DNA of 64,000 bases from positions 613 through 64,612 of the forward strand of contig JBDLIQ010000007.1 of the NCBI GenBank assembly GCA_039714775.1. The letters run 5' to 3'. A program made the translations under genes and the position numbers. The notes under the pieces were generated by a model that was not told the origin of the DNA, did not search any database, and saw nothing but the letters and a program-made list of their open reading frames with translations. Each line of letters opens with the position of its first letter. Position 1 is the stretch's first letter. Of the stretch, positions 42,323 to 55,907 are shown one piece after another. This stretch comes from Bacteroidota bacterium. GTDB taxonomy: Bacteria > Bacteroidota > Bacteroidia > Bacteroidales > GCA-2748055.

Positions 42323-42625
42323 TCAGCCGGTTGAGTCATCCATGCGTGATTCGATCTCTTTGATATGATCGACCAGGAAAGAGGAGTCGCTTCCCGATAC
42401 CGCCCTGATCCACGATTTTAGCCGGAGGTTCTGTTCATATACCTTCTGGCAGCTTTTAGCTTCCTCTTTGTCAGTAATTGTTTCGTTCTGATCATATACG
42501 GATTTTAGCTTATCCAGCAGACGGTCCTTCTCCCGGCACCACTCGGAGTTGCGGTCATCACAACCGCACCGGGCATCTTCAATCCACTTGAACAGACCCT
42601 CGGGAATATATACCCTGTGACTCAT
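42323..42625 (-). CDS. Hypothetical 100-aa protein with four Cys
   Basis: ORF 3 nt downstream of the preceding gene; RCGCDD..WC...SC. Confidence 0.55.
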   Translation of the reverse strand: MSHRVYIPEGLFKWIEDARCGCDDRNSEWCREKDRLLDKLKSVYDQNETITDKEEAKSCQKVYEQNLRLKSWIRAVSGSDSSFLVDHIKEIESRMDDSTG

Positions 42626-43403: not shown

Positions 43404-44387
43404 CTAATACCCGGCGTCTGAAAAGTATTTCATGAACTGGGTTCGTTCGTAGAGTACAGGCTGTTTGATGTTGTGCTGGCTGGCGTGTCCCCGGAAGTCG
43501 GCAATGGCATCATACTCGTGCCGTTTCATCCACTCTTTCAGGGTGTTGAGCATCTCTTCGATCACCTTTGGGCCCTCTTTATAAATGGCGGAAACCGTCT
43601 GTACCACCTGCGCTCCCACCAGCAGGTTCTTGATGACAGTCTCTCCGTCATAGACCCCCCTGGAGGCAGCCATGTCCATGCGGATCTTTTCGTAGAGGAT
43701 CCCGATCCAGCGAATGGTCATCACATTCAGCTCTTTGCAGCTATAGATATCCCCGGGGACTATCTTTTCGCGTTCGATGTCCACATCGGGACTGTAGAAC
43801 CTGTTGAACAGGACCACGGCCGATGCTTTGGTCTGTGACAGTTTATGGACAAAGTTGGCCAGCCCCGAGAAGTAGTAGCTGATCTTCAGTGCAAAGGGGA
43901 TGTTGATGGCATCGCTGATCTGCTCGATGATGTCAAAGTAGACCTGCTCCTTCTTCTCGCCGGTCTGGTCGATTTCGGCCGGCAGCAAGAAGAGGTTGAT
44001 CTCCAGTGCATCGGCTCCCGCCTCCTCGATCATCTTGGCATAGTTGGTCCACCCCTCGGCAGAGACGCAGTTAACACTGGCAATAACCGGTATGCTGAGT
44101 GCCTCCTTGTTCTCCTTGATAAGCTTTACGTACTGCGTCAGGTTGTGCTTTTTGGAGTAGTACATGGCATAGTACTCCTGGTCGGAAAATGAACCGTACA
44201 TGTTGTTGAGCCGCTGCTCGTCTACATCATGCAGGATCTGCTCCTCAAAAAGGGATTTAAGCACGATGGCTCCTGCACCCGCTTTTTCGTAAGCGATGGA
44301 GTTTTCAATGTTCTCTGTCAGTCCCGAGCTTCCCACAATGATGGGGCTCTTTAACTGCAATCCCATGTAGCTGGTTGAAAGGTCCAT
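43404..44387 (-). CDS. Dihydroorotate dehydrogenase-like FMN protein lacking the catalytic Cys
   Basis: LSTSYMGLQLKSPIIVGSS, GAIVLKSLFEEQI, LFNRFYSPD, ERTQFMK; ALEINLF in place of ELNxSCP. Confidence 0.88.
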   Translation of the reverse strand: MDLSTSYMGLQLKSPIIVGSSGLTENIENSIAYEKAGAGAIVLKSLFEEQILHDVDEQRLNNMYGSFSDQEYYAMYYSKKHNLTQYVKLIKENKEALSIPVIASVNCVSAEGWTNYAKMIEEAGADALEINLFLLPAEIDQTGEKKEQVYFDIIEQISDAINIPFALKISYYFSGLANFVHKLSQTKASAVVLFNRFYSPDVDIEREKIVPGDIYSCKELNVMTIRWIGILYEKIRMDMAASRGVYDGETVIKNLLVGAQVVQTVSAIYKEGPKVIEEMLNTLKEWMKRHEYDAIADFRGHASQHNIKQPVLYERTQFMKYFSDAGY

Positions 44388-44400
44388 AATAGTTAGGTAG

Positions 44401-46215
44401 TTAGGTAGTTGTTTTTTTTGAATCTTCAAAAAGGAATTCATCAATCCCCCTGGCTGCCTTGTGTCCGTTGGCGATGCCGTGGATCACATCGGGCCCCTGG
44501 ATGATATCACCTCCCAGGAAGAGCCAGGGCACACCGCTCTGGAAATCCTCGTTCACCTTGATCCGTCCCCGCTTGTCGATCTCCAGCTCATGTTTGAGAT
44601 CTTCGGAGAGGTAGGAGAGGTCCATCCCCTGTCCGATCGATTCAACCACCATGCTCCCCTCAAAGAACTTCAGGTTATCCATGTTGCACTGGGGATTGAA
44701 CTTTCCTTCTTCATCAAAGAGGGAGTGGCACTGGGCCACATGCAACCCCTTGATCTTATCGTTTTCGATCTCGATGCGCTGGGGTGCCCATCCGGGATTA
44801 ACCACTGCATCCTCTTCCCTTGCCTCAACCACCTCTTCGCGGTCGGCAGGCATCTTATCTTCGGTCTCAAGGCTGGTGGCAATGATCCCCGCCTTTCCAT
44901 ACTTCTGCTTCTGCAGCCGGGCCAGTGAACGGGTGATGTCCATGGCCACGTTACCACCTCCGATCACCACGATCTTCTCGGCAAGCGGTACCTCTTTGCC
45001 CAGGGTGATGTCGCGGAGCAGGTCGATGGACTGGTGAACATCTTTGTGGTCGCTTCCTTCGATCCGGGTACTGCGTCCCAGGTGGAGACCCGTTCCGGAA
45101 AATACCGCATCATACTGCTCACCCAGCTCCTCGAGTGTAATATCACTGCCCACGTTGGTGTTGTACCTGATCTCCACGCCCAGGGACTCAATGTAGTTGA
45201 TGTCCTTGTCAATCTGGTCGTAGGGAAGACGGTATTCGGGGATCCCGAACCGCATCATCCCACCGGCTTCGGAGAGTTTTTCAAATATGGTGCATTCGTA
45301 ACCCATCAGTGCTAAATAGTGGGCCGCTGACAGTCCGCTGGGGCCTGAACCAATAATAGCGATTTTTTTCCCATTCTTCTCAATGAACTCCGAATTAAGT
45401 ATCTTCTTATACCTGTCTGAGGGGTTCTGATCGGCAATGTATCTCTTCAGCCAGCGAATGGAGAGGGCCTCGCCCCTGTGTCCCAATGTGCAGACTGTCT
45501 CGCACTTATGGGTGCAAATTCGTCCGCATATCTCGGGCAGCGGGTTGGTGTCATACAAGATGCGCAACCCCTCTTCCAGGTCATCGTTGCGGATGGCCTT
45601 GATGTATTCGGGGATGCCCATGTGTGCCGGACAGGTGGCGGTACAGATGCCGCACTCCACACAGCGGTCGGCCTCTTTCTCTGCCTGCTCTTTAGAGTAT
45701 CCCGTTACCATCTCTACGAATGAATCTCCCCGCTTTTCGGGCGAAAGGTGGTCCATGGAGACCCGCTCCAGGTTGTAGAACTCATAATTGGGTTCCGGTT
45801 TTTTCCACCCCTTCTCTTCGCTGTCCCACGGTTTTTCATCCACGCCCGGAATAAACCTGTACTGTTCGGGATCCTCCTCCACCCAGGTATAGGCGTTGGT
45901 GAGGCTGAGTGAGCCTGTGGTACAGATATCGACGCAGAGTCCGCACCAGCAGCAACGGCCATAGTCTACCAGGGGCCTCAGTCCGCTGTCCCCCTCTTTT
46001 GTCTCCACACCCTCTACCGGGACCAGGTCGATGGCCTCATTTTCACAGATGGTTTCGCAGGTGCCACAACCAATGCAAGTCTCAATGTCGTTTTTGTGAA
46101 AACCCCTGTACCTGTCAGCCCCCGGCCTTTCGCCGATGGGATCTTTCAGGGCTACCGGTTTTTCAAAGGCCTTTCTCCAGGCTGTAAAGGGGGAGAATAT
46201 ATCTTTCAGGCTCAT
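44401..46215 (-). CDS. MbsN/NuoI-like 2x[4Fe-4S] domain fused to a GltD-like FAD/Fe-S oxidoreductase
   Basis: YRGFH, CIGCGTCETIC, CCWCGLCVDIC; then RCVECGICTATCP, ICGRICTHKCETVC, GSGPSGL, GGMMRFGIPEYRLP, GGGNVAMD. Confidence 0.9.
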   Translation of the reverse strand: MSLKDIFSPFTAWRKAFEKPVALKDPIGERPGADRYRGFHKNDIETCIGCGTCETICENEAIDLVPVEGVETKEGDSGLRPLVDYGRCCWCGLCVDICTTGSLSLTNAYTWVEEDPEQYRFIPGVDEKPWDSEEKGWKKPEPNYEFYNLERVSMDHLSPEKRGDSFVEMVTGYSKEQAEKEADRCVECGICTATCPAHMGIPEYIKAIRNDDLEEGLRILYDTNPLPEICGRICTHKCETVCTLGHRGEALSIRWLKRYIADQNPSDRYKKILNSEFIEKNGKKIAIIGSGPSGLSAAHYLALMGYECTIFEKLSEAGGMMRFGIPEYRLPYDQIDKDINYIESLGVEIRYNTNVGSDITLEELGEQYDAVFSGTGLHLGRSTRIEGSDHKDVHQSIDLLRDITLGKEVPLAEKIVVIGGGNVAMDITRSLARLQKQKYGKAGIIATSLETEDKMPADREEVVEAREEDAVVNPGWAPQRIEIENDKIKGLHVAQCHSLFDEEGKFNPQCNMDNLKFFEGSMVVESIGQGMDLSYLSEDLKHELEIDKRGRIKVNEDFQSGVPWLFLGGDIIQGPDVIHGIANGHKAARGIDEFLFEDSKKTTT

Positions 46216-46235
46216 GATCGCTCTGTTTAATGTTG

Positions 46236-47426
46236 TTATCGTTCAATTTCCGGTGGACAGGTGGCCAGGGAGACCATGATGGAGGAGACATCTGAGATGT
46301 TCGCTCCCTCCAACAGTTTCTCCAGCAGTGCCATTGCATGGGTATAGCTGGGTCCGCGCAGGTTGATCCTTCTTGGATAGATGGAGCCGTCGGCCACCAT
46401 GTAGAAGAGGTACTCTCCCCGGCTCGATTCGCTCCGTACCAGGGTCTCTCCTTTGGGTACTTTCCAGTGCAATACGTTGGGTGTTTCGGCCCTGATGTCT
46501 CCCTTTTCGGGCATCTTTGCCATGATCTGCCTGAGCAGGTCGATGGTGGTATCCACATCCCTTCGGCGAACATGGAAGCGGGCAAAAACATCCGATTCCT
46601 GTGCGGTGTTAACCCCGAAGTCGAGCTGGTCATAGTAGAGGTAGGGGTAGTCCTTGCGAACATCCCTTTCATAGCCTGCAGCACGTGCAACCGGTCCGGT
46701 GGCACCATAGCGATCGATCCAGTCGGCCGGAACAATCCCGATCCCTTTGGTCCGCTTCTTAAATACTGCGTTTGCATAGACCACCCTGTCCACATCCTTC
46801 ATAAAGGATTCGATCTTCACAAGGTTCTCCTCCAGCCGCGTTTTGAAGCCATCGGGCAGCAGTCCCCTCACCCCGCCAGGCAGGATGTACATGTGGTAAA
46901 CGCGTCCTCCGGTGAGCTCCTCGAACCGGTCCAGAATCAGCTCCCTGTAGTAGAGACCCCACGTTCCCGGCAGTCCGAGCCCGATGGTACCTCCCTGGCC
47001 GGGTACGCTTCTGAGCAGAACCTGCAGTCTTGCCAGTTCCAGTGCCATCATCCTGAGCCATTGGGCCATCTCAGGAACTTCGATCCCCGACAAAATTTCG
47101 GTACCCCGTGCCAGATTGTATTCGTTGGAGTCCGGTTCGGGGACACACATGCGGATGGAGGTGGGGAAGCACTGCATGTACCTGCGGCGCTCGAACAGTT
47201 TTTCAAATCCACGGTGCAGGTAGCCCACATGGGTTTTGGACTCCATGATCTCATCTCCGCTGATGGTCAGCTCGAGCGCCATGTTCCCGGTTATCCCGGG
47301 ATGGTTGGGACCCTGCCACACCTTGATGTACTTCTGTGATTCGAGGTCCACATCCGGTTTCCCATCCTCGTTGAGCCCGGGAAACAGGTTTCTTTCATTC
47401 TTCCAGTTAAATATCTTATTGCTCAT
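46236..47426 (-). CDS. mbxL: MbsL/MbxL (NuoD-like large subunit without NiFe CxxC motifs)
   Basis: GPNHPG, GYLHRGFEKL, RMCVPEPD, C-terminal TCPPEIER. Confidence 0.85.
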   Translation of the reverse strand: MSNKIFNWKNERNLFPGLNEDGKPDVDLESQKYIKVWQGPNHPGITGNMALELTISGDEIMESKTHVGYLHRGFEKLFERRRYMQCFPTSIRMCVPEPDSNEYNLARGTEILSGIEVPEMAQWLRMMALELARLQVLLRSVPGQGGTIGLGLPGTWGLYYRELILDRFEELTGGRVYHMYILPGGVRGLLPDGFKTRLEENLVKIESFMKDVDRVVYANAVFKKRTKGIGIVPADWIDRYGATGPVARAAGYERDVRKDYPYLYYDQLDFGVNTAQESDVFARFHVRRRDVDTTIDLLRQIMAKMPEKGDIRAETPNVLHWKVPKGETLVRSESSRGEYLFYMVADGSIYPRRINLRGPSYTHAMALLEKLLEGANISDVSSIMVSLATCPPEIER

Positions 47427-47946
47427 CCGGGTAAAGCTTTTGTTTCATGTACTGGGCAGGGTCGTTGGTCTCTCTGCCCGGTCTCGGGAAAAAGGTATCC
47501 TCCGAATACTGCTTTGTGTCGAAATCCCTGCGCATGGGAGGAGTGTTGTCCCACCCTTCGAGCAGAAATGGTTCATCCACACGGGGACTTCCGGGGAAGT
47601 CGATGCCAAACATCTCTTTGATCTCCCGCTGGAAAGTGGCAGCATGCTCCCAGAGCTCATGAATGGAGTCCATGGTGGCACTGTCGCGGTCGATAAAGAC
47701 CCTGATTCCCAGGTCGCTCTTTTCGGCCGGGTTGTTGACCGCATAGGTGAGCTGGAATTTTCCCTCTTCGAGCCAGTCCACCGCGGAGAGGATCACCAGG
47801 ATGGTGTATCCATGGTTCTCCTTCAGGCTGGTGATCATGGGGATCAGCTTTGGAGCCTCCAGCGAAACAAATGTTTGCCCGTCTGGCGTCTCCTTTATCT
47901 CGGTGATGGAGAATTGCTCCTTTAAATGACTTATCATCTCGTTCAT
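47416..47946 (-). CDS. mbxK: MbsK/MbxK (NuoC-like)
   Basis: LSAVDW, FQREIKEMFGIDFPG, PPMRRDF; probable start ATG 47946. Confidence 0.85.
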   Translation of the reverse strand: MNEMISHLKEQFSITEIKETPDGQTFVSLEAPKLIPMITSLKENHGYTILVILSAVDWLEEGKFQLTYAVNNPAEKSDLGIRVFIDRDSATMDSIHELWEHAATFQREIKEMFGIDFPGSPRVDEPFLLEGWDNTPPMRRDFDTKQYSEDTFFPRPGRETNDPAQYMKQKLYPDEQ

Positions 47947-47956
47947 GATCTCTGTT

Positions 47957-48631
47957 TTACCAGTTATAGGTGGGCATGTTCCAGTCCTTGATGATCTTTT
48001 TCTGGTTGGCCTTGTACCAGTCCAGGTTCTCTGCATAGTGGTTGGCGCCCTCGGCGTTGCCGCTTTTGATCCGCTCCTTCAGTTTGTTAAATCCTGCAAG
48101 AATGGCTTCGGGCCGTGGCATGCATCCTGCAATGTAGGTGTCAACGGGCAGATAGTGATCCAGCCTGTTGATGGTGTTGTAGCTGTCCCAGTACATGCCT
48201 CCGTTGATGGTGCAGCTGCCCAGGGCAATCACATACTTTGGATTCTGCATCTGTTCATAGCTTCGGATGGCCCGTTTCAGGGTCTTTACCGCCAGGTAAC
48301 CCGAGATGATCAGAACACCCGACTGGCGTGGTGTAGGGCGCATCGCCACCCCGTAGCGGTAGGCATCGAACCGGGGAGAGAAGAGGGGAGGAAGTTCAAT
48401 ACTTCCACAACCGGTTCCATAGGCCAGTACCCAGAGTGATTCGGCACGTGCCCAGTTCAGGAATTTCTCCAGGACCCCCTTATAGGGCGCCTCCACCTTG
48501 GGCAGATCCTGGCAGAAGTAATCGTTCAACGGATCCACCTGGATCTGTTCCCCATCAGGTCCGGTGACCACATGCTTCCTGTTTTCAGGAGCCAGGAACT
48601 TATCAGTAGGTATATCTTTTTTATCAGGCAT
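47957..48631 (-). CDS. mbxJ: MbsJ/MbxJ (NuoB-like [4Fe-4S] subunit with three Cys ligands)
   Basis: GTGCGSIE, TPRQS, PKYVIALGSC, PVDTYIAGCMPRPE. Confidence 0.87.
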   Translation of the reverse strand: MPDKKDIPTDKFLAPENRKHVVTGPDGEQIQVDPLNDYFCQDLPKVEAPYKGVLEKFLNWARAESLWVLAYGTGCGSIELPPLFSPRFDAYRYGVAMRPTPRQSGVLIISGYLAVKTLKRAIRSYEQMQNPKYVIALGSCTINGGMYWDSYNTINRLDHYLPVDTYIAGCMPRPEAILAGFNKLKERIKSGNAEGANHYAENLDWYKANQKKIIKDWNMPTYNW

Positions 48632-48635
48632 ATCT

Positions 48636-49544
48636 CTAAATAATAAATATTACAATAGCTGCGACCCCGATTACAAGCGGGATCTTAAGCAACCAGGGAA
48701 TGGATTGATCCACACGGAAGCGGGGAAATACCATCCCCACAAACACCGACCAGAAATAGATCAGGAAGGTCTTCAGGATCAGCATGCCCCAGTTGGTGGC
48801 TCCTCCGAAAAAGAGATTCATATAGAGGACCGCCTCCACCACGTGGAGAATGGCCCGGTTGGTCTGCAGCACACCCAGGAAGGTGCCATGGTATTCGGTG
48901 GGTGGTCCGATGGGATTCTCCTGTGGAGCCATCACCACATTGAAGGGTGAGTGTCCCATGGCACCCAGGAATGATAGCATGGCAGCAGCGGTTGCCAGGG
49001 GATTGGTGAACAGGGTCCAGTGCAGGATCCCGCCCTGCTGTGCTGCAACGATCTCTGTAAGCGACAGTGTGTTGTACTGGATGGCTATGGAGAGGATCGC
49101 CAGTGTTAATGGCAATTCAATGGCAGTAAATTGTGCCAGTCCGCGGGAGATCCCGATGGCAGAGTAGGGGTGACCACCCTCTCCGGCACCCAGGGCCATC
49201 CCCAGCATTCCGAAGAACATGAAGTAGGCGATCAGGATCAGGTCACCGGTAAAGGAGAAATTGCTCCAGTACTCGGAGCCGAAGATCATCGGCATAAAGA
49301 GGAAGATCCCTACACCACCCGATAGCCTGAACACAGGTCCCAGGTAGAACATCACCCCGTGCGTCAGCTGGGTGCGGATGCTGTAGTTCTTCACCAGGTT
49401 GATATAGGGCTGGTAGATCTTGATTCCCCGGCGCATACCTACCCTGGCGATAATTTTCCGGATGATCCCCGACATGATAAGACCCCAGTTCAACACAATG
49501 AACAGGCCTGCCAGGACAAATACTATTCTTAAAAAGAGACTCAT
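48636..49544 (-). CDS. mbxM: MbsM/MbxM (NuoH-like membrane anchor)
   Basis: RKIIARV..R.G..IYQP, PFNV..APQE..GPPTEY, FPRFRVDQ. Confidence 0.87.
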   Translation of the reverse strand: MSLFLRIVFVLAGLFIVLNWGLIMSGIIRKIIARVGMRRGIKIYQPYINLVKNYSIRTQLTHGVMFYLGPVFRLSGGVGIFLFMPMIFGSEYWSNFSFTGDLILIAYFMFFGMLGMALGAGEGGHPYSAIGISRGLAQFTAIELPLTLAILSIAIQYNTLSLTEIVAAQQGGILHWTLFTNPLATAAAMLSFLGAMGHSPFNVVMAPQENPIGPPTEYHGTFLGVLQTNRAILHVVEAVLYMNLFFGGATNWGMLILKTFLIYFWSVFVGMVFPRFRVDQSIPWLLKIPLVIGVAAIVIFII

Positions 49545-52500
49545 AATGAAAACATTAGCATATAAATTACAACCATATAGATCAGGATATGCACCACGTA
49601 GGTCTGCCCGTTCCCTGAGTAGATCCTGCGAACGTTGTCAGCCACCTGGTGGGAGAGTGAATGAACCCCGTTCCAGAATCCAGTGGCAACCGGGATTGAA
49701 AGGAACCCGACGGCCCTGAAATAGTGTGAGAACATGTTGTGCGAAAAGTGGGTGGTTTCTGGCTTAAAGGGCCTCTCTCCTGCATATACGATATTGAACT
49801 GCTTAACTTTTTGTGCTTTACGGCTCATGATCCAGAGCCATGATGCCAGGATAACGAACATGATCATGATGACCGACATGATCTTCCATCCACTCCAGGT
49901 TCCCAGGTTGGTGGTGGCGGTGACATTTTCCCAGGTCAGCGGATCGGAGGGGAAGTAGCTGCTCTGTGCCAGCATACTCCCTATCGGTTTCAGCACCAGG
50001 TCGGGCCGGGCCGAAAACAGCAGTATGCCAACGATCAGGATGGCCTGTGGGATGATGTACCACACCGGAACCTCCCTGACCTTTCGGAACCTGTCCTTGG
50101 GTTGTCCCAGAAAGACCGAATGGATCAGTTTAAATGCATACAAAAAGGCGATGGTTCCTGAAAAGAAGACCAATGCCCCCTGGAAGTACCATCCTTTGGA
50201 GAGCACTGCATTGTAAAAGAGCCATTTTCCTGCAAAACCGGCCAGGGGCGGAATTCCTGCCAGGGTAATGATCCCTATCAGGACTGCAATGAAGCTCCAG
50301 GGCATCTGTTTGATCAGTCCGCCCATCTCATACATTTTATGTGTTTTTACCCGCATCACCACCCCGCCAATGGCAAGGAAGAGCAGGGTCTTAAAGAGAA
50401 AGTGGTTGATGGAGTAGGTGAGTGCGGTGAGCCAGCCAACGTTGGTCATAAAAGCCAGTGCGAAGAGGATGTAACCCAGGTTACCCACACTGGAGTAAGC
50501 CAGCAGGCGCTTGGCATCCTCCTGGAACACGGCCATCAGGTTTCCTCCCAGGGCAGTAATGGCACCCAGCCATCCAAGCATATAGAGGAGGCCATGCTGT
50601 TCGGACTGCTCGGCCCCCATGTAGAGGAAGAGCAGGATCAGACCGAAGGCGCCTCCTTTCAGCAGGATCCCCGATACCATGGGAGATACATCCGATTCAG
50701 CCTCGGCATGTGCACCCGGCAACCAGATGTGGAGTCCCAGGGCAGCTGTTTTGGTCAGGAATCCAATGGCCAGCAGGGTGTAGCTCCAGCCCGGGAAATG
50801 GCTTCCCGAGAGGATGAACATATCCAGTGAGGTTTGCCCAAAGTGGGAGAGTGCGATCCCCGCAAAGATCAGGTAGGCACCTCCCAGGGAGAAGAGCATG
50901 TAGTTAAATGCATGCTTCATGCTCCGTTTTCCTCTGAGAATCAGGATATAGGACCCAAGTGTCATCAGCTCCCATGCAAAGAAGAACTGGAACAGGTTTT
51001 CGGCTTCGACCAGGCCAATGAGCCCGGCATACATCATCACCGCAAAGGGGAAGAACCCTTCCCGCTTGCCCTTTACCGAATAGCCGGCAAAGAGGGTCAG
51101 GATACCACCGATCATGAAGATCCCGGAAAATATCAACCGCAGTGTGTCGCCCTCAATGGAGGGGTAGAGCCATATGGAGTAGGCGGCCATGCCCGCGATC
51201 ACCAGGGTGTTTTTGATCCATGCAGGCAGGAAGTCTACCATAAACAGCAGGATGATGAAGAGGATGGGGAGCAGGTTCAGTGTGCCTCCCAATTCAGACA
51301 TGCTGTTTACATAGTAGGAGACTGCAAGTACAAGAATGGTGAACACCAGGGGAGGAAGGATCTTTTCCCACCTGATCTCGAGGCTGCTCCCGGTCTCCTG
51401 TTCGCCCTTCATGGCATAACCGAACCACCTGAAGAGGTAGAGTCCCTCAAACAATGAGCCAACAAGGATCACAGCGATCCAGATGAACATCTGTTGCTGC
51501 GAGAGCTCCATGATGAGCTGCCATTTTCCGTAGAAAGAGGGAAAAGGAGGGAAGCCCATGAGCGTCAGAAGAAACAGTCCGAACATAAAGATCATCAGCC
51601 TGCTTTTTCGAAGCACGGACCACTCAGTGATGGACTCTTTCTTTACAATTCCGGAGATCCAGAAGAGGCCCGCTTTGGCAAGAAAATGGCTGATAAATAT
51701 TGAGAGGAACACAAAATTAAAGTGTTCCCCCAGCTTGGGTGCAAGGCCCAGGATCACCAGCATCAGTCCGATCTGACCGATGGATGAGTATCCCAGTAAA
51801 CGGTTGCTGTTCTTCTGCGCAATGCCCAGGATGTTGGAACCTACGAAGGTGATGGCTCCGATCACCATCAGGTAAGGCAGCCAGCTGATCTGGCTCATGG
51901 GCAACAGTTTATATAATACAAAGATCGATGCAGTGGCGGTCCCCGAAGAGATCATGGCACTGACACCCGGGTGTGCAGCCTGGTACAGATCCAGGGCCCA
52001 TCCGTTGGCAGGAAAGGGTTTTAGTTCCAGCAGAATGGCCATCAGGATCAGAAACAGGGCCAGGGAGACCCCCTTGATGGCAGCAGGGTTGCTCTCTATG
52101 AATGTGTCGATGTTCAGCGTTCCGGTATGGAGGTAGAAAAAACCGATGCCAATCAGAAGAAATGCGGAGACCACACCCACTGCAATCAGGTATTTGAACC
52201 CGGCTGCAAATGGTTCATGGCCCTTTTTCAGATAGAGGAGTCCGGCCGTGGCAATGGAGACCACCTCAAGAAAAACAAAGAGGTTGAACATATCCCTCGA
52301 CATGACCAGCACATTCATCGCCATAACCAGTACAAGGAACAGCACGCTACCTTTGGTCCCCTGCTCCCTGAAATCCCTGTAGAGGTAGGTGAATCCAAGC
52401 AATCCAAGCAGGTTGATAAAGAGGGTGAAAAGCGACTCTTCCAACCCCATTCTCAGGTTGATCGAAAAGGGTGGTGTGGCACCGCCGGTAAAAATTTGTT

Positions 52501-52675
52501 GCGTCTCCTTCAGTCCGGAAGAGAGCAGATAGAGCCAGTCGGCCGAGACAAAAACCGCAAAGGCCAGGGAGAGCATGGATAGAATTCCGGCAAATCCTTG
52601 TTCATTCTTTCTAAATACTCCAAGCAGGAATGCTGAACCCAGCAGCACTGCGATAATATAGATGGGATTTACCAT
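49541..52675 (-). CDS. Fused MbsH-MbsH' (two MrpD/NuoN-type antiporter modules)
   Basis: 1044 aa with two modules: DMFNLFVFLEV..FKYL..LLGYSSIGQIG and FFFAWELM..HIWLPGAHAEA..LLAYSSVGNLG..GIPPLAGF. Confidence 0.88.
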   Translation of the reverse strand: MVNPIYIIAVLLGSAFLLGVFRKNEQGFAGILSMLSLAFAVFVSADWLYLLSSGLKETQQIFTGGATPPFSINLRMGLEESLFTLFINLLGLLGFTYLYRDFREQGTKGSVLFLVLVMAMNVLVMSRDMFNLFVFLEVVSIATAGLLYLKKGHEPFAAGFKYLIAVGVVSAFLLIGIGFFYLHTGTLNIDTFIESNPAAIKGVSLALFLILMAILLELKPFPANGWALDLYQAAHPGVSAMISSGTATASIFVLYKLLPMSQISWLPYLMVIGAITFVGSNILGIAQKNSNRLLGYSSIGQIGLMLVILGLAPKLGEHFNFVFLSIFISHFLAKAGLFWISGIVKKESITEWSVLRKSRLMIFMFGLFLLTLMGFPPFPSFYGKWQLIMELSQQQMFIWIAVILVGSLFEGLYLFRWFGYAMKGEQETGSSLEIRWEKILPPLVFTILVLAVSYYVNSMSELGGTLNLLPILFIILLFMVDFLPAWIKNTLVIAGMAAYSIWLYPSIEGDTLRLIFSGIFMIGGILTLFAGYSVKGKREGFFPFAVMMYAGLIGLVEAENLFQFFFAWELMTLGSYILILRGKRSMKHAFNYMLFSLGGAYLIFAGIALSHFGQTSLDMFILSGSHFPGWSYTLLAIGFLTKTAALGLHIWLPGAHAEAESDVSPMVSGILLKGGAFGLILLFLYMGAEQSEQHGLLYMLGWLGAITALGGNLMAVFQEDAKRLLAYSSVGNLGYILFALAFMTNVGWLTALTYSINHFLFKTLLFLAIGGVVMRVKTHKMYEMGGLIKQMPWSFIAVLIGIITLAGIPPLAGFAGKWLFYNAVLSKGWYFQGALVFFSGTIAFLYAFKLIHSVFLGQPKDRFRKVREVPVWYIIPQAILIVGILLFSARPDLVLKPIGSMLAQSSYFPSDPLTWENVTATTNLGTWSGWKIMSVIMIMFVILASWLWIMSRKAQKVKQFNIVYAGERPFKPETTHFSHNMFSHYFRAVGFLSIPVATGFWNGVHSLSHQVADNVRRIYSGNGQTYVVHILIYMVVIYMLMFSL

Positions 52676-53040
52676 TTCAGCGATTTGTATTGATTGATTT
52701 CCAGAGATTTATTTTGCCTGTGTAGCTTCAGGGCAAAGGTGAGCATCAACGCAGTGATCCCCACGCCGATCACAATGGCTGTGAGCACCAGCGCCTGGGG
52801 AACAGGATCTGTGACCAGTTCTGCGGCCCCGCCTGCAGGCACTGCATCATCAATGATTGGAGCGGTGCGGCCCCGGATGTACCCGATTGCCACAAGCAGG
52901 AGGTGGATGCTGGTGTCGATGATGCTGAAGCTGATGATCATCTTAATGATGTTCTTCTGGGAGATAATGCCCCACAGACCAGCAATCAGCAGCAAAAAAC
53001 CGGCTATTACAGCGATATATTCAATGCTAAAGTTGTTCAT
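52669..53040 (-). CDS. MbsG (MrpC/MnhC-like)
   Basis: NIIKMII, DPVPQALVLTAIVIG. Confidence 0.92.
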   Translation of the reverse strand: MNNFSIEYIAVIAGFLLLIAGLWGIISQKNIIKMIISFSIIDTSIHLLLVAIGYIRGRTAPIIDDAVPAGGAAELVTDPVPQALVLTAIVIGVGITALMLTFALKLHRQNKSLEINQYKSLKW

Positions 53041-53740
53041 CTTTCTTACCCTGTATTTGGTTCAGTTCAAGTATGATTGTTGATAATTCGGCCCCCACCT
53101 TGAGTCCGATCAGGCTGTATATGATGGGGATGGCTCCTGCACTGAGCAGTCTGCCCATTGTTCCGACAGGCAGGATCTTGTTGTCGAGGAAACCGGCAGC
53201 CAGGAGCACGCCAAGGATACCAATCAGCACGAAAGTAAAGCCCGACAGAGATTCTGTGAGTTCAAGCAGGCGGTGACCGGTTTTGGAGTGGGTGACAGAG
53301 ATCAGCAGGAGGATGAAGGTGGAGGCCAGGATGGCTCCTCCCTGGAACCCCCCTCCCGGGGTGAGGTGTCCGTTGATAAAGATGTATACACCAATCAGGG
53401 CGATCATGGGCATCAGCACTTTCGCTGCGGTGACCATAAATTCACTCGATTCCCTTACGAATTCTGTTCCTCTCCCTTTTTCGGTTTTCAGCAGCAGGCC
53501 GATGATGGCAGCAGTGAGGAAAAGGATGGTAACCTCCCCCAGGGTGTCGAGCCCGCGATATGTAACCACCACTGCAGTGACCAGGTTGGCTGCACCTGTT
53601 TCAGCGGGCCCCTGTTCTGCATAGTAGCGGGCCGTATCGTTGAGTTCGGTCCGGCTGTTGAAATCTGTATAGAGACTGTACATCATCCAGGTCACCAACC
53701 CGATGATGACAAGGAGAAGGCTATTTTTCAGGATCTTCAT
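53027..53740 (-). CDS. MbsE/F (MrpB/MnhB-like)
   Basis: NLVTAVVVTYRGLDTLGEV, GHLTPGGGFQGG; probable start ATG 53740. Confidence 0.9.
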   Translation of the reverse strand: MKILKNSLLLVIIGLVTWMMYSLYTDFNSRTELNDTARYYAEQGPAETGAANLVTAVVVTYRGLDTLGEVTILFLTAAIIGLLLKTEKGRGTEFVRESSEFMVTAAKVLMPMIALIGVYIFINGHLTPGGGFQGGAILASTFILLLISVTHSKTGHRLLELTESLSGFTFVLIGILGVLLAAGFLDNKILPVGTMGRLLSAGAIPIIYSLIGLKVGAELSTIILELNQIQGKKDEQL

Positions 53741-53972
53741 GGCGGATCTTGTTAAGAACATAAAAGAATATGGCAACGGTCAGCACGCTTCCGATGGAAG
53801 CTTCAGTAATGGCCACATCAGGCGCTGACATGAAGATGTAGACCACTGAGGCAAACAGGCTGATGATACCCGATGCAATAACGGCTACCTGCAGGTTCTT
53901 ATGGTGGATGGCAACCAGGGCCATCGACAGCATAACCACAGCGAGCAGGAGAACGAGGATGGTTTGGATCAT
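53721..53972 (-). CDS. MbsD (DUF4040/MrpA C-terminal-like)
   Basis: APDVAITEASIG. Confidence 0.88.
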   Translation of the reverse strand: MIQTILVLLLAVVMLSMALVAIHHKNLQVAVIASGIISLFASVVYIFMSAPDVAITEASIGSVLTVAIFFYVLNKIRHEDPEK

Positions 53973-53976
53973 GACG

Positions 53977-54324
53977 CTATTTCTTAGATTTTTGGCTTTC
54001 CCTGCGATCGGCCTTCAGGGCATCGATATGGGTTTTGTCCGACAGCGGGAGTCCTGTAAAATGGGCTACCCTTCCCAGAACGTGTGATGAAACCGGGTTT
54101 GATATTAATATAAAGACGATCAGCAGGATGATCTTCAGCAACCAGTCGGGATGCACCAACCCGATACCCAGCAGGGTTAGCATAGAGCCGAGGGTGGTGG
54201 CTTTGGTTCCTGCCTGGATCCGGTTGAAAATGTCAGGCATTCGAAGCAACCCGATGGCTGCAAACAGTATAAAAAGGGAGCCTATAAGGCTTAATATGGC
54301 TCCTGAAATGGTTAAGAAATCCAT
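53977..54324 (-). CDS. MbsC (MrpG/MnhG-like)
   Basis: GLLRMPDIFNRIQAGTKATTLG, NPVSSH; probable start ATG 54324. Confidence 0.9.
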   Translation of the reverse strand: MDFLTISGAILSLIGSLFILFAAIGLLRMPDIFNRIQAGTKATTLGSMLTLLGIGLVHPDWLLKIILLIVFILISNPVSSHVLGRVAHFTGLPLSDKTHIDALKADRRESQKSKK

Positions 54325-54325
54325 G

Positions 54326-54586
54326 TTACAAGCTTTTTTCAAGATATTTGGCAACCACAATGACACCGATAAAACTGAGAATGGCATAGACGATCGATAC
54401 GTCCAGAATGATCTTCCTTCCCAGGAAATGGGCAAGCAGGACAATCAGTCCGATGCTGCTGATGGTAAGTACATCGAGAGCCACCACCCGGTCCGCAACC
54501 GAACTGCCTTTGAGAAACCGTACAATGACCAGCAGGAATGAGATTCCGATGATCAATAGCGAAATTGATAGAATTGTATTAACCAT
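54326..54586 (-). CDS. MbsB (MrpF/MnhF-like)
   Basis: RFLKGSSVADRVVALD, LSFIG. Confidence 0.9.
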   Translation of the reverse strand: MVNTILSISLLIIGISFLLVIVRFLKGSSVADRVVALDVLTISSIGLIVLLAHFLGRKIILDVSIVYAILSFIGVIVVAKYLEKSL

Positions 54587-55073
54587 AAATTACCTCCAGA
54601 TATTTTTCAAATTTCCTGATAACCTCTTTTCCGTACTGCTCCGGATCCGTTGCATCGACATATACACAATGAATGTACAGGGTGTCGTCAATGATGTCGA
54701 TGGTGAAGGTGCCCGGTGTAAGGGTAATCGAATTGGCCAGGATCAACCTTGCCATTTTCGATTGAAGGGTGGTGGTGGCCTTGATGATGCCCGGTTTGAT
54801 GGGCAGGGAGGGGCTCAATACCCTTTTTGCCATATCGAAGTTGGCTTTGACCAGCTCACCCAGAAAAGTTCCAAGGAACAGCAGGGTGTAGAGGAGGGAT
54901 TTGAGGGAGAGGTTCAATTCATCGAAGACCGAACAATTCCGGCAAACCGCAAATGAAATGGCAAGAGCGACCAGGGCTCCCGACAGAAGATACTCTGTTG
55001 CGGCCGATTGGTTCAGTATGAGCCATGCTGCAAACAGAATAACAAAAATGATACTAATGGCTTTAAACTTCAT
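54579..55073 (-). CDS. MbsA (MrpE/MnhE-like)
   Basis: KANFDMA, PGII, LANSITLTPGT, LYIH. Confidence 0.92.
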   Translation of the reverse strand: MKFKAISIIFVILFAAWLILNQSAATEYLLSGALVALAISFAVCRNCSVFDELNLSLKSLLYTLLFLGTFLGELVKANFDMAKRVLSPSLPIKPGIIKATTTLQSKMARLILANSITLTPGTFTIDIIDDTLYIHCVYVDATDPEQYGKEVIRKFEKYLEVIYG

Positions 55074-55086
55074 AACAATGGACGTT

Positions 55087-55809
55087 TCATAGTAATGGAC
55101 GTTTCATATTTTTAAGAAACTCTTTATGGATCTTTTTCAGTTGCTCCACATCCAGACCGGTTCCGTAAATCCTCAGGAAATCGTGAAAGGCGGGTTTGTC
55201 CAGCCAGTATCCTATGGCGGCATCGAAGTTTCTGAACTTGCTGTTTGATTTCTGATAGGTGATCAGTTTTTCAAAAGTGCTCCAATCCAGATGCTCCGGA
55301 ATCATCAGGTAGTACAGTCCGTTGGAGGTGCTGTTCTGATAGATATCCTGCGCAATTTGACGAATCTCAAAAAATGATTTCAGGTGGATATGAGCAAAAA
55401 AACTATTGGGGGTTTTCTCCTTCAGGAGTTTGAATTTGAGCTGGTTGAGCGACTCAATGACCCCCGGTAGCTGTTCGGGATCAACCTCTTTCACCCTGAA
55501 TGCATTCAGATGCTCACCTTTCATGCGGATTACCGACGGACAGATGTTTACAGAGAGCTTTGACTGAAGCTCCAGGCTGATCCTGCAAAGGTTCTCTGCC
55601 TCCAGGTGGTCCGGGGTTTGAAAAGGAATGTAGTAGGAGAGCTCTTTGCAGCTGTTGTCGGCCGGCTCCTCTTCATTACAGTAATACCCGGGGAAGGGAT
55701 CCGGTGAATAGAGAACCTGCTGTTTGGTAGCAAATGGCAAGGGGGCAGCTGAAAGGGTCTCCCTTTTCAATATGGAACCAAACCTGAGTGTTGATTGTTT
55801 CAAATTCAT
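55087..55809 (-). CDS. Hypothetical protein, first gene of the mbs operon; paralog of 42629..43339
   Basis: About 240 aa; PFPGYY, LDWSTFEKL, RNFDAAIG, DFLRIY; ATG 55809 lies downstream of a minus-strand promoter. Confidence 0.7.
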   Translation of the reverse strand: MNLKQSTLRFGSILKRETLSAAPLPFATKQQVLYSPDPFPGYYCNEEEPADNSCKELSYYIPFQTPDHLEAENLCRISLELQSKLSVNICPSVIRMKGEHLNAFRVKEVDPEQLPGVIESLNQLKFKLLKEKTPNSFFAHIHLKSFFEIRQIAQDIYQNSTSNGLYYLMIPEHLDWSTFEKLITYQKSNSKFRNFDAAIGYWLDKPAFHDFLRIYGTGLDVEQLKKIHKEFLKNMKRPLL

Positions 55810-55829
55810 TAGCTTTGTCAATCAGGATG

Positions 55830-55891: not shown

Positions 55892-55907
55892 ATTGAGATA
55901 TCTCACA
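55892..55907. promoter_or_regulatory. Candidate Crp/Fnr binding site
   Basis: ATTGA-GATATC-TCACA matches TGTGA/TTGA-N6-TCACA spacing, in the divergent region next to a crp/fnr gene. Confidence 0.55.

What the first reader, a model, noticed from the sequence alone, without database searches (positions are those of the whole stretch)
44401..55073. Complete MBS/MBX-type respiratory complex (neither hydrogenase nor complex I) in archaeal gene order
Seen: the order MrpE-F-G, DUF4040, MrpB, MrpC, double MrpD, NuoH, NuoB, NuoC, NuoD, NuoI-like equals A-B-C-D-E/F-G-H-H'-M-J-K-L-N. The large subunit has lost both NiFe CxxC pairs and keeps single cysteines (RMCVPEPD and TCPPEIER). The small subunit has GTGCGSIE, one Cys where NuoB has CC and hydrogenases have CxxC, leaving three Cys ligands. 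Known: this order and motif pattern characterise the Pyrococcus furiosus membrane-bound sulfane reductase, and related operons occur in Thermotogae. Inference: this is a bacterial Na+/H+-translocating sulfane reductase that automatic pipelines would label Nuo/Mrp.
Basis: partly seen in the sequence, partly recalled or inferred. Interest (0 to 1): 0.85.

Follow-up and report, generated by a model that had tools for sequence, protein, structure and literature searches.

The report
Bacterial MBS-type complex with built-in NAD(P)H module
An anaerobic marine Bacteroidota genome carries a full copy of the archaeal sulfur-reducing, ion-pumping membrane complex, but its last subunit is fused to an NAD(P)H-binding flavoprotein, so it probably uses NADH rather than only ferredoxin.

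Summary
On the minus strand, 55073 to 44401 encodes MnhE, MrpF, MrpG, MbhD, MbhE/MnhB, NuoK-like, a fused double MrpD, NuoH-, NuoB-, NuoC- and NuoD-like proteins and a final Fe-S subunit. All seven subunits I tested (L, J, K, M, H, H', N-terminal part of N) match P. furiosus MBS (PDB 6U8Y) best among solved structures. The cysteine pattern equals that of MBS: two vestigial Cys in L and three cluster ligands in J.

Its C-terminal ~450 aa are an NfnB/GltD-type module with two [4Fe-4S] clusters, FAD and an NAD(P)H site. This fusion is one open frame in 76 of 77 related loci. A DHOD-like FMN protein follows N in 49 of 68 loci, and an FNR-like regulator lies upstream in 41 of 80 loci.

The genome has no other NuoD gene, so no complex I was found. 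It does have Rnf, Nqr, PFOR and [FeFe]-hydrogenase genes.

Best reading: an NAD(H)-fed, ion-translocating MBS/MBX-type reductase whose 3-Cys cluster reduces sulfane sulfur. The acceptor is inferred, not shown.

A gltD-fused "mbx-like" operon was already described for Thermotoga and proteobacteria in 2015. This is therefore a new member of a known but biochemically uncharacterised kind.

The parts
55921..56619 (+). Divergent Crp/Fnr-family regulator with an FNR-like Cys pattern (CxxCx5C near the N-terminus plus a central Cys)
   Evidence: Pfam HTH_Crp_2 and cNMP_binding. Translation. Homologues lie divergently upstream in 41 of 80 loci plus the window. That the Cys pattern resembles E. coli FNR is recalled.
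55894..55905 (.). Perfect 12-bp palindrome TGAGATATCTCA between the regulator and the operon; candidate operator
   Evidence: Read. The same palindrome sits at the same offset in 4 close relatives (L001, L002, L004, L005). Other loci have other palindromes. Function not tested.
55087..55821 (-). Unknown 244-aa protein, 13 nt upstream of the first Mrp gene; paralogue of 42629-43339
   Evidence: No Pfam or NCBIfam match. BLASTP against the downstream paralogue gives E 4e-14. The family is present in 17 loci plus the window.
54579..55073 (-). MnhE/MrpE-like (MbsA position)
   Evidence: PF01899, E 2.6e-37
54326..54586 (-). MrpF-like (MbsB position)
   Evidence: PF04066, E 7.5e-18
53977..54324 (-). 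MrpG-like (MbsC position); start taken at the ATG of MDFLTISG
   Evidence: PF03334, E 4.4e-25; ORF
53721..53972 (-). MbhD/DUF4040-type (MbsD position)
   Evidence: PF13244, E 3.8e-19
53027..53740 (-). MbhE + MnhB domain protein (MbsE position)
   Evidence: PF20501 E 1.8e-8 and PF04039 E 2e-21
52669..53040 (-). NuoK/MrpC-like (MbsG position)
   Evidence: PF00420, E 4.1e-23
49541..52675 (-). Fused antiporter-like subunits H (about residues 1-440) and H' (about 441-1044)
   Evidence: Two Proton_antipo_M stretches. The N-terminal half matches 6u8y_H (E 1.9e-42) and the C-terminal half matches 6u8y_X, MbsH' (E 3.4e-56). It forms one contiguous tblastn hit in the related loci.
48636..49544 (-). NuoH-like membrane anchor (MbsM)
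   Evidence: 6u8y_M at E 2.8e-40; next best hit 3.3e-13
47957..48631 (-). NuoB-like subunit J carrying the proximal [4Fe-4S] cluster with three Cys ligands (C75, C140, C170) and Gly at the MbsJ C25 position
   Evidence: 6u8y_J at E 1.1e-62, against NdhK 5.4e-39 and MbhJ 2.3e-24. G72 and C75 are present in 76 of 76 aligned sequences, C140 in 76 of 76 and C170 in 75 of 76.
47416..47946 (-). NuoC-like subunit K
   Evidence: PF00329. 6u8y_K at E 1.3e-13 is the best PDB hit.
46236..47426 (-). NuoD/[NiFe]-large-subunit-like subunit L with two vestigial Cys (C94, C390)
   Evidence: 6u8y_L at E 1.3e-80, against Nqo4 9e-55 and MbhL 2.2e-33. C94 is present in 79 of 81 sequences, C390 in 78 of 81 and V95 in 81 of 81.
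44401..46215 (-). Subunit N fusion. Residues ~1-150 are an MbsN/NuoI-like 2x[4Fe-4S] domain. Residues ~150-604 are an NfnB/GltD-type domain (2x[4Fe-4S], FAD, NAD(P)H site).
   Evidence: Pfam Fer4_9/Fer4_7, Fer4_20 and Pyr_redox_2. NF010590 scores 882.6 bits against a cut-off of 946. Residues 7-173 match 6u8y_N (E 2e-22) and residues 152-597 match NfnB 4ylf_B and 5jca_L (E ~1e-71). It is a single open frame in 76 of 77 loci. All 16 cluster Cys are invariant in 67 sequences.
43404..44387 (-). DHOD-like FMN TIM-barrel protein (NCBIfam 'dihydroorotate dehydrogenase-like protein'); a frequent but not universal operon member
   Evidence: NF005741 scores 402 bits against a cut-off of 303. The model has pLDDT 83.7. 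Foldseek finds DHOD-A at TM 0.71 and DPD at TM 0.61-0.67. It lies directly after N in 49 of 68 loci with room.
42629..43339 (-). Unknown 236-aa protein, paralogue of 55087-55821
   Evidence: The atlas search gave no lead.
42323..42625 (-). Small Cys-containing ORF of 100 aa, 3 nt after the previous gene; possibly the last gene of the unit
   Evidence: ORF. No Pfam match. tblastn finds it in only 3 loci.

Best explanation
The locus encodes a bacterial MBS/MBX-type membrane oxidoreductase. It has an Mrp-derived ion-translocating arm (A-B-C-D-E-G plus fused H-H' and M) and a peripheral arm (J, K, L, N).

Unlike archaeal MBS, subunit N carries its own electron-input module. This is an NfnB-type flavoprotein domain with FAD, two [4Fe-4S] clusters and a nicotinamide site that looks NADH-type rather than NADPH-type.

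The inferred electron path runs from NAD(H) to FAD, through the two NfnB-type clusters and the two N clusters, to the 3-Cys proximal cluster of J. There, as proposed for MBS, the free iron reduces a sulfane-sulfur (polysulfide) bond in the chamber formed by L, J and M. This drives H+/Na+ export.

Expression is probably anaerobic, under the divergent FNR-like regulator. The DHOD-like FMN protein is an accessory redox partner of unknown substrate.

Shown: gene content, domain architecture, motif conservation, nearest solved relatives and genomic context. Inferred: donor, acceptor, direction and ion coupling.
For: 1. All 7 subunits tested hit 6U8Y best: L 1.3e-80, J 1.1e-62, N(1-173) 2e-22, M 2.8e-40, H' 3.4e-56, H 1.9e-42, K 1.3e-13.
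2. J aligns to MbsJ without gaps, and the three MBS ligand Cys are conserved in 76/76, 76/76 and 75/76 sequences. The non-ligand C25 is Gly in 76/76. The MBS paper reports that C25A and C85A/C385A mutants keep activity and that the 3-Cys cluster is the catalyst (passages of PMC7684303).
3. The N fusion is conserved: 76 of 77 loci have one open frame. All eight Cys of the NuoI-like part and all eight of the NfnB-like part are invariant in 67 sequences. The electron wire from the flavin to J is therefore under selection as a unit.
4. The host's own NfnB paralogue has YRR where N has the invariant T-S/A-L-E. An acidic residue there is the classical NADH signature (established Rossmann-fold knowledge; inference).
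5. Quinone is unlikely. The Nqo4 H38 and Y87 positions are I/T and V, and V95 is present in 81/81 sequences.
6. In T. maritima, whose mbx-like operon is reported to have the gltD-type subunit (PMC4758237), mbxA rose 4.36-fold after S0 addition (PMC9431562).
7. The host is a fermentative anaerobe with PFOR, Rnf, Nqr, NfnAB-like genes and 3-4 [FeFe]-hydrogenase-like genes. No cytochrome bd and no second NuoD were found in a 96%-complete genome.
Against: - No activity, expression or structure data exist for this or any bacterial homologue. The sulfane acceptor rests on homology to one archaeal enzyme.
- NADH to polysulfide has a small standard driving force of roughly 60 mV (recalled potentials). 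This is about the size quoted for MBH (12 kJ/mol per 2e-, PMC8165549) and would pay for little pumping.
- The flavoprotein domain is closest to bifurcating NfnB proteins (245 bits) rather than GltD (about 160 bits). A plain NADH-input role may therefore be too simple.
- The NAD(P) module could be an output rather than an input.
- The L tree is not decisive. The clade with MBS-type sequences has SH-aLRT 90 without a star, and the AU test does not reject the Nuo-side placement (p 0.41).
- The DHOD-like gene is missing after N in 19 of 68 loci and has 3 paralogues elsewhere in the genome. Its role in the complex is uncertain.
- The NADH-versus-NADPH call rests on one motif.
Confidence: 0.45

Rival explanations
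1. Ferredoxin:NAD(P)+ oxidoreductase with ion pumping (Rnf-like), the original proposal for MBX. Reduced ferredoxin from PFOR enters at N, and the fused flavoprotein reduces NAD(P)+.
For: Degli Esposti 2015 proposes exactly this for gltD-type mbx-like operons (passages of PMC4758237). The host makes reduced ferredoxin, having a 1181-aa PFOR. The NAD(P) module is fused to the subunit that accepts ferredoxin electrons in MBS.
Against: On this route electrons would bypass J and L. Yet the J cluster ligands and the L pocket residues are nearly invariant. In complex-I-type machines coupling is tied to chemistry at that site (established knowledge). The host already has a six-gene Rnf cluster and an NfnAB-like pair. 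P. furiosus MBX itself turned out to be a sulfane reductase (PMC7684303).
Confidence: 0.15
2. NADH:menaquinone oxidoreductase. This would be a complex I substitute in which one NfnB-type domain replaces NuoEFG.
For: No other NuoD-family gene was found in the host or in 5 of 5 relatives searched. In contrast, 398 of 401 sampled Bacteroidota lack this L type at E <= 1e-100, which is compatible with replacement. The host has an Nqr-like cluster, which implies quinone use (inference). The architecture parallels complex I.
Against: L lacks the quinone head-group ligands; the Nqo4 H38 and Y87 positions are I/T and V, with V95 in 81/81. J has one Cys where complex I has the tandem CC. T. maritima, which has a homologous operon, is described as having no quinone found to be required for its electron transport chain (PMC9431562). 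The six genomes are kin, not independent.
Confidence: 0.15
3. Flavin-based electron-bifurcating membrane complex. The NfnB-type FAD splits NAD(P)H electrons between the low-potential Fe-S chain leading to J and a high-potential branch ending in the DHOD-like FMN protein and its unknown substrate.
For: The domain is nearest to bifurcating NfnB proteins: 4ylf_B, 5jca_L and 5vj7_A at 238-245 bits, against GltD at about 160 bits. A second flavoprotein gene follows N in 49 of 68 loci. Another DHOD-like paralogue lies next to the host's NfnAB-like genes.
Against: There is no NfnA-type [2Fe-2S]/FAD partner in the operon. The DHOD-like gene is absent after N in 19 of 68 loci. By phmmer alignment the DHOD/DPD catalytic Cys position (NLSCPN) reads NLFLLP here, so no substrate can be named. 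Binding of the two proteins could not be tested.
Confidence: 0.1
4. A faithful copy of archaeal MBS. It would be a ferredoxin-driven sulfane reductase, with the flavoprotein domain only an auxiliary or regulatory appendage.
For: The same evidence that ties the core to MBS. S0 induction in T. maritima.
Against: The appendage is 450 aa. Its 8 cluster Cys, FAD and nucleotide motifs are invariant across 67 sequences at 64-92% identity to the window's N. That is hard to reconcile with a dispensable role.
Confidence: 0.1

Closest known systems
Pyrococcus furiosus membrane-bound sulfane reductase MBS (formerly MBX), PDB 6U8Y
   Same: Same subunit set and order: A-B-C-D-E-G-H-H'-M-J-K-L-N. It is the best solved match for all 7 subunits tested. 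L keeps the same two vestigial Cys. J keeps the same three cluster ligands in an ungapped alignment.
   Different: H and H' are fused into one 1044-aa protein. MbsJ C25 is Gly here. N carries a ~450-aa NfnB-type flavoprotein domain that MbsN (208 aa) lacks. A DHOD-like gene follows N. The host is a bacterium from marine metagenome data, not a hyperthermophilic archaeon. L is only moderately similar to MbsL (274 bits over ~365 aligned residues).
[quoted passage not shown]
   Same: An Mrp module plus NuoH/B/C/D homologues, with the NuoI position occupied by a gltD-related flavoprotein. L keeps vestigial Cys. The host is fermentative with Rnf, Nfn and [FeFe] hydrogenases.
   Different: The paper says such operons often end with rubrerythrin. 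Here and in 49 of 68 relatives the next gene is DHOD-like, and in 31 loci a CBS-pair protein is present. I could not fetch the Thermotoga locus to compare it directly. The only indirect sign is that NF010590 passes its cut-off in 1 of 14 control genomes, and the output does not say which.
Respiratory complex I / NDH-1 (Nuo, NUO11)
   Same: Homologous Q-module-like subunits (B, C, D, I, H) and antiporter-like subunits. NCBIfam would name J as NuoB.
   Different: No NuoE/F/G genes in the operon. No tandem CC in J. The quinone ligands H38 and Y87 are absent. Mrp E/F/G/B subunits are present. The NADH module is a single NfnB-type domain.
NfnB / SudA large subunit of NADH-dependent ferredoxin:NADP+ oxidoreductase (PDB 4YLF, 5JCA)
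   Same: Residues 152-597 align over the full length at E ~1e-71. Both 4-Cys groups, the FAD site and the GGGNxAMD nucleotide site are present.
   Different: No NfnA partner gene in the operon. It is fused to a NuoI-like domain. The YRR motif of the host's own NfnB is replaced by T-S-L-E, with a 5-residue insertion just before it.
Dihydropyrimidine dehydrogenase / PreT-PreA
   Same: A GltD-type Fe-S flavoprotein followed by a DHOD-fold FMN protein. Foldseek finds DPD at TM 0.61-0.67.
   Different: The DHOD-like protein lacks PreA's C-terminal 2x[4Fe-4S] domain (326 aa, DHO_dh only). It has no Cys at the catalytic-base position in the phmmer alignment.
Membrane-bound hydrogenase MBH (PDB 6CFW) and other group 4 [NiFe] hydrogenases
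   Same: Same superfamily. In the tree, L lies within a starred 37-row set that contains all 17 four-Cys sequences.
   Different: Both CxxC pairs are reduced to single Cys. Scores are far lower: MbhL 2.2e-33 and MbhJ 2.3e-24.

Membership tests
MBS/MBX (P. furiosus type) | Thirteen-subunit set A-B-C-D-E-G-H-H'-M-J-K-L-N in one operon | tested here: met
   All are present in that order, with H and H' fused in one ORF.
MBS/MBX (P. furiosus type) | L retains only two of the four [NiFe] Cys (MbsL C85, C385) | tested here: met
   C94 and C390 align to C85 and C385. They are conserved in 79/81 and 78/81 sequences.
MBS/MBX (P. furiosus type) | Proximal [4Fe-4S] cluster of J held by three Cys (C28, C93, C123) in a shortened loop | tested here: met
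   The alignment to 6u8y_J is ungapped. C75, C140 and C170 are conserved in 76/76, 76/76 and 75/76 sequences, and the C25 position is Gly in 76/76. Loop length relative to MBH was not measured directly. Supplementary Fig. 6c of PMC7684303 was not seen.
MBS/MBX (P. furiosus type) | N is a small two-cluster subunit that takes electrons from ferredoxin | tested here: inconclusive
   The N-terminal domain matches MbsN (E 2e-22) with both 4-Cys motifs. However, it is fused to an NfnB-type NAD(P)H domain. Ferredoxin use is not testable here.
MBS/MBX (P. furiosus type) | Phylogenetic placement of L with MbsL | tested here: inconclusive
   L falls in a clade of 6 two-Cys sequences (SH-aLRT 90). Two of them, P0005 and P0006, also hit 6u8y_L best at 363 and 347 bits. 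The AU test does not reject the Nuo-side placement (p 0.41). No named reference sequences could be placed in the tree.
MBS/MBX (P. furiosus type) | Polysulfide/DMTS reduction coupled to H+/Na+ translocation | not testable with these tools
   Needs biochemistry.
Complex I (Nuo) | Quinone head-group ligands in NuoD (Nqo4 H38, Y87) and tandem Cys-Cys in NuoB | tested here: not met
   The H38 position is I/T and the Y87 position is V95, present in 81/81 sequences. J has GTGC, not CC.
Complex I (Nuo) | NuoE/F/G NADH-dehydrogenase module | tested here: not met
   No such genes lie between 42323 and 55821. No second NuoD-family gene is found in the genome.
Group 4 [NiFe] hydrogenase | Two CxxC pairs in the large subunit | tested here: not met
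   L has RMCVPE and TCPPE. The 17 four-Cys sequences form a separate group in the tree.
Bacterial mbx-like operon with gltD-type subunit (Degli Esposti 2015) | NuoI position occupied by a gltD-related NAD(P)-binding flavoprotein next to Mrp and NuoH/B/C/D homologues | tested here: met
   The description comes from passages of PMC4758237.
NfnAB | NfnB with an adjacent NfnA (FAD/[2Fe-2S]) partner and an NADPH site | tested here: not met
   No NfnA-like gene lies in the operon. The host's own NfnB-like paralogue has YRR where N has TSLE. That YRR binds the 2'-phosphate is recalled.
Dihydroorotate / dihydropyrimidine dehydrogenase | Catalytic Cys (or Ser) base in the NLSCPN loop; for PreA, a C-terminal 2x[4Fe-4S] domain | tested here: not met
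   The phmmer alignment puts NLFLLP opposite NLSCPN. Only the DHO_dh domain is found, in 326 aa. A true PyrD lies elsewhere in the genome at 282 bits. That this Cys is the catalytic base is recalled.

The most novel reading that the evidence does not exclude
Anaerobic marine Bacteroidota that lack complex I may run a 'sulfur complex I'. This would be an energy-conserving NADH:sulfane-sulfur oxidoreductase in which a single NfnB-type domain replaces the three-subunit NADH module. The catalyst would be a naturally 3-Cys [4Fe-4S] cluster. Together with the DHOD-like flavoprotein it might work as a membrane-bound electron-bifurcating machine. That would extend iron-sulfur-cluster-catalysed sulfur respiration from hyperthermophilic archaea to mesophilic bacteria of sulfidic sediments.
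Probability: 0.25. Interest if true: 0.75.

Novelty: new member of a known kind. Interest (0 to 1): 0.5.

Why it matters
MBS is the only complex-I relative for which catalysis by a bare iron-sulfur cluster has been proposed, and it has been studied in one hyperthermophilic archaeon.

The bacterial relatives found here fix Gly at the spare Cys (76 of 76). They keep the three ligands and add a built-in NAD(P)H module. This is a natural experiment that supports the 3-Cys catalytic cluster idea.

The scan behind these relatives confirmed 297 encoding stretches among one genome each of 185,579 species. Several record titles point to sulfidic or anoxic sources. These mesophilic bacteria offer a possible route to test donor, acceptor and ion coupling.

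In annotation these genes appear as Nuo and Mrp. Metabolic reconstructions of such MAGs will therefore wrongly infer complex I and a separate antiporter.

If NADH is the donor, the complex would let fermenters conserve energy from NADH re-oxidation with sulfur compounds.

Tried and rejected
- Hydrogenase and complex I readings were rejected on motifs.
- A named-reference phylogeny could not be built. Instead I used 124 of the 150 unnamed 50%-identity representatives, those spanning query residues <=60 to >=375, plus the window's L. I classed them by motif and anchored two by PDB search. The tree is a quick LG+G4 search. The AU test used a group defined after seeing the tree and did not reject the rival placement.
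- Promoter and terminator scans of 42000-56200 gave no more sites than shuffles: 11 against 12.3 and 15 against 14.1.
- No RNA holder was listed for 44401-49544.
- The atlas search for the DHOD-like protein only returned DHO_dh clusters. For the 236-aa unknown it returned nothing above 0.76.
- Complex prediction gave no verdict. The complex-prediction job (subunit N with the DHOD-like protein) was not folded, so binding remains untested.
- Literature searches, each giving a listing only unless stated:
  - 'Mbx-like': 1 paper
  - 'Mbx' + 'Ignavibacteria': 0
  - 'dihydroorotate dehydrogenase-like' + 'Mrp': 0
  - 'MbxN': 3 irrelevant papers
  - 'Mbx/Bacteroidetes/ferredoxin/NuoD': 11 papers, none on a Bacteroidota complex by title or abstract
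  - 'Mbx/Mbh/Bacteroidota' from 2019: 37 papers, 25 listed, none on it by title or abstract
  - The 'Ehr' search was swamped by unrelated uses of the word.
- Subscription reviews that I recall as discussing bacterial Mbx (Schut et al. 2013; Marreiros et al. 2013) are not in the library and were not seen.
- Supplements are closed. Supplementary figures of PMC7684303 (J-loop alignment) and of PMC4758237 may bear on the loop-length and Thermotoga claims.
- Papers read as passages only (find mode): PMC7684303, PMC4758237, PMC9431562, PMC8165549, PMC6085437, PMC6349859, PMC10451490.

Full report
**What is there**

Twelve genes lie on the minus strand between 55073 and 44401. The gaps between them are short or they overlap. 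The Pfam families, in order, are as follows.
- MNHE
- MrpF_PhaF
- PhaG_MnhG
- MbhD
- MbhE+MnhB
- Oxidored_q2
- one 1044-aa protein with two Proton_antipo_M stretches
- NADHdh
- Oxidored_q6
- Complex1_30kDa
- Complex1_49kDa
- a 604-aa Fe-S protein

This is the MBS order A-B-C-D-E-G-H-H'-M-J-K-L-N, with H and H' fused.

**Which family**

I searched seven subunits against all PDB chains by sequence. Each finds P. furiosus MBS (6U8Y) first, by a wide margin.

| Subunit | MBS (6U8Y) | Other hits |
|---|---|---|
| L | 1.3e-80 | Nqo4 9e-55; MbhL 2.2e-33 |
| J | 1.1e-62 | NdhK 5.4e-39; MbhJ 2.3e-24 |
| M | 2.8e-40 | 3.3e-13 |
| H' half | 3.4e-56 | - |
| H half | 1.9e-42 | - |
| K | 1.3e-13 | 5.2e-10 |
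| N, residues 7-173 | MbsN 2e-22 | a bacterial NuoI 3.4e-10 |

The J alignment to MbsJ is ungapped. C75, C140 and C170 therefore fall on MbsJ C28, C93 and C123. According to passages of PMC7684303, these are the only three ligands of the proximal cluster. G72 falls on C25, which the paper says is too far away to ligate and is dispensable, since the C25A mutant is active. L C94 and C390 fall on MbsL C85 and C385, which are also dispensable in that paper.

Two further signatures separate the locus from complex I.
- At the positions of the complex I quinone ligands (Nqo4 H38 and Y87), L has I/T and V.
- J has GTGC where complex I has a tandem CC.

**Relatives**

A pattern scan of one genome per species confirmed 297 encoding stretches, and 80 loci were fetched. 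By their record titles, most are Bacteroidales, Draconibacterium, Lentimicrobiaceae, Flavobacteriales or 'Chlorobiota' MAGs. A few are labelled Aminicenantes or Delongbacteria. Their L proteins are 62-91% identical to the window's L.

Conservation in the alignments:
- J: G72 76/76, C75 76/76, C140 76/76, C170 75/76.
- L: C94 79/81, V95 81/81, C390 78/81.

The complex is rare in an even sample of the phylum. Only 3 of 401 genomes, including the window's own, have an L match at E <= 1e-100.

Subunit N is a fusion. Residues ~1-150 are the MbsN/NuoI-like two-cluster domain. Residues ~150-604 are Fer4_20 plus Pyr_redox_2.

The C-terminal part aligns over its full length with NfnB of T. maritima and P. 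furiosus (4ylf_B, 5jca_L, E ~1e-71). It matches GltD and DPD less well. NCBIfam NF010590 'putative oxidoreductase' covers the whole fusion at 882.6 bits, just under its cut-off of 946.

Both parts are present in 77 of the 80 loci. In 76 of those 77 they form a single open frame, and L077 is frameshifted. In an alignment of 67 sequences, all eight Cys of the N-terminal domain and all eight of the NfnB-like domain are invariant. The FAD and GGGNVAMD motifs are invariant too.

The host's own NfnB-like paralogue (contig C90, next to an NfnA-like gene and PntAB-like genes) has YRR at one position. There N has T-S-L-E, and T447, L449 and E450 are invariant. An acidic residue at that position is the usual mark of NADH rather than NADPH binding. 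This is an inference from general Rossmann-fold knowledge. That YRR binds the 2'-phosphate is recalled, not shown here.

**Accessory genes**

A DHOD-like gene (43404-44387) follows N. It passes the NCBIfam cut-off for 'dihydroorotate dehydrogenase-like protein' (402 against 303 bits).
- Distribution: it lies within 400 nt after N in 49 of the 68 loci that have at least 1200 nt of sequence there.
- The 19 others: most have a ~155-aa CBS-pair protein instead (Pfam). That CBS family occurs in 31 loci.
- Structure: the AlphaFold model has pLDDT 83.7. It resembles class 1A DHOD (TM 0.71) and the FMN domain of DPD (TM 0.61-0.67).
- Active site: in the phmmer alignment the NLSCPN loop of L. lactis DHOD-A is NLFLLP here. 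The usual Cys base, as I recall it, is therefore absent.
- Paralogues: the genome has three further paralogues above the cut-off and a separate true PyrD.

A Crp/Fnr-family regulator lies divergently upstream. It has an N-terminal CxxCx5C motif plus a central Cys. Homologues are present upstream in 41 loci and the window. A 12-bp perfect palindrome lies between it and the operon. Only the four closest relatives share it.

Two paralogous proteins of unknown family flank the operon on the same strand.

**Host**

The genome is 4.06 Mb and 96% complete.
- It has only this NuoD-family gene. The same holds for 5 of 5 relatives searched.
- It has two RnfD/NqrB homologues. By gene order and size they sit in an RnfBCDGEA-like cluster and an Nqr-like cluster (inferred).
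- It has PFOR, four [FeFe]-hydrogenase-domain matches and two NrfD-family genes.
- No cytochrome bd match was found.

This is the profile of a fermentative anaerobe, much like T. maritima.

**Phylogeny**

HMMER against 1.84 billion representatives found 6938 relatives of L, and the best 150 were listed. I kept the 124 representatives that span L and added the window's L, giving 125 rows. I classed them by motif: 17 four-Cys (hydrogenase type), 18 two-Cys (MBS type), 61 no-Cys/Tyr87 (Nuo type) and 29 other.

In the quick IQ-TREE tree:
- L and its 67%-identical representative group with four other two-Cys sequences (SH-aLRT 90).
- This group lies inside a starred 37-row set that holds all 17 hydrogenase-type rows.
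- It is separated from the 86-row Nuo side.

Two of the neighbours (P0005, P0006) also hit 6u8y_L best, at 363 and 347 bits against at most 259 bits for any complex I chain.

Against this, an AU test does not reject a tree in which L joins the Nuo side (delta lnL 12.7, p 0.41). The tree alone is therefore weak evidence. The case for MBS type rests on the seven-subunit score pattern, the gene order and the motifs.

**How it probably works**

The conserved wire runs from a nicotinamide site through FAD and four [4Fe-4S] clusters to the 3-Cys cluster of J. It points to a built-in dehydrogenase module feeding the MBS-type catalytic site. This is analogous to NuoEFG feeding N2 in complex I.

The acceptor is most likely sulfane sulfur, for three reasons.
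- The site is that of MBS, residue for residue.
- The quinone ligands are absent.
- mbxA of T. maritima rose 4.36-fold on S0 addition (PMC9431562). The T. maritima operon is reported to have the same gltD-type subunit (PMC4758237).

The Mrp-type arm implies H+/Na+ export.

The weak point is energetics. The standard NADH-to-polysulfide span is about 60 mV by recalled potentials. That is similar to the 12 kJ/mol per 2e- quoted for MBH (PMC8165549). Only a low pumping stoichiometry would be expected unless sulfide is kept low.

Three rivals remain open:
- a ferredoxin:NAD(P)+ oxidoreductase (the 2015 proposal);
- a menaquinone reductase replacing the missing complex I;
- a bifurcating complex that uses the DHOD-like flavoprotein.

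**Novelty**

The gltD-fused 'mbx-like' operon is in print for Thermotoga and proteobacteria (PMC4758237). The idea that T. maritima MBX is a sulfur reductase is also in print (PMC9431562).

My searches of the open library found none of the following described:
- its spread in Bacteroidota;
- the invariant Gly at the C25 position;
- the NADH-type motif;
- the DHOD-like, CBS-pair and FNR-like companions;
- the absence of complex I in carriers.

Subscription reviews were not searchable. I therefore file this as a new member of a known, biochemically untested kind.

Noticed in passing
window 55087-55821 and 42629-43339 (minus strand): Two paralogous proteins (22% identity, E 4e-14) with no Pfam or NCBIfam match bracket the operon on the same strand. 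The family recurs next to the operon in 17 other loci. No structural or atlas lead was found.
   Followed up: partly
window 39366-40982 and 40995-42320 (plus strand): A multihaem cytochrome c (PF11783 Cytochrome_cB, E 2.1e-74, plus c7/c3-like haem motifs) is followed by a cytochrome b561 (Ni_hydr_CYTB) fused to two PAS domains. The pair is convergent with the operon. The b561-PAS fusion is unusual. I recall PF11783 as the octahaem tetrathionate-reductase type.
   Followed up: no
window 57345-60275 (minus strand) and 60784-61515 (plus strand): A cluster of OsmC-like, DUF302, SLAC1/TehA-type anion channel and thioredoxin-reductase-like (Pyr_redox_2) genes lies here, with a second Crp-family regulator nearby. 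It may be a redox or sulfur/tellurite stress unit.
   Followed up: no
window 55894-55905: A perfect palindrome TGAGATATCTCA lies 16 nt upstream of the FNR-like regulator's start codon. It is kept at the same offset in L001, L002, L004 and L005. More distant loci show other palindromes instead, including TTGAT-N4-ATCAA (2 loci) and TAACA-N2-TGTTA (5 occurrences).
   Followed up: partly
own genome G000: C52:2177-3154, C90:10543-11535, C146:5231-6214: There are three more paralogues of the DHOD-like family NF005741 (342-420 bits). The one on C90 lies divergently next to NfnA-like and NfnB-like genes and PntAB-like genes, and upstream of 2-oxoglutarate dehydrogenase-like genes. The family's function is unknown.
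   Followed up: partly
loci L012, L013, L014, L017, L019 and others (31 loci), directly after N or after the DHOD-like gene: A ~155-aa CBS-pair protein is a frequent last gene of the operon in relatives but is absent from the window. It may be a nucleotide-sensing regulator of the complex.
   Followed up: partly
window 42323-42625 (minus strand): A 100-aa ORF with several Cys lies 3 nt after the 236-aa unknown gene. It was found in only 3 related loci.
   Followed up: no
window 1-2000 versus the rest: GC content varies between 0.44 and 0.55 along the window. The operon (0.51-0.54) is richer than its flanks at 54-62 kb (0.44-0.47). I did not examine whether this reflects membrane-protein codon use or transfer.
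   Followed up: no
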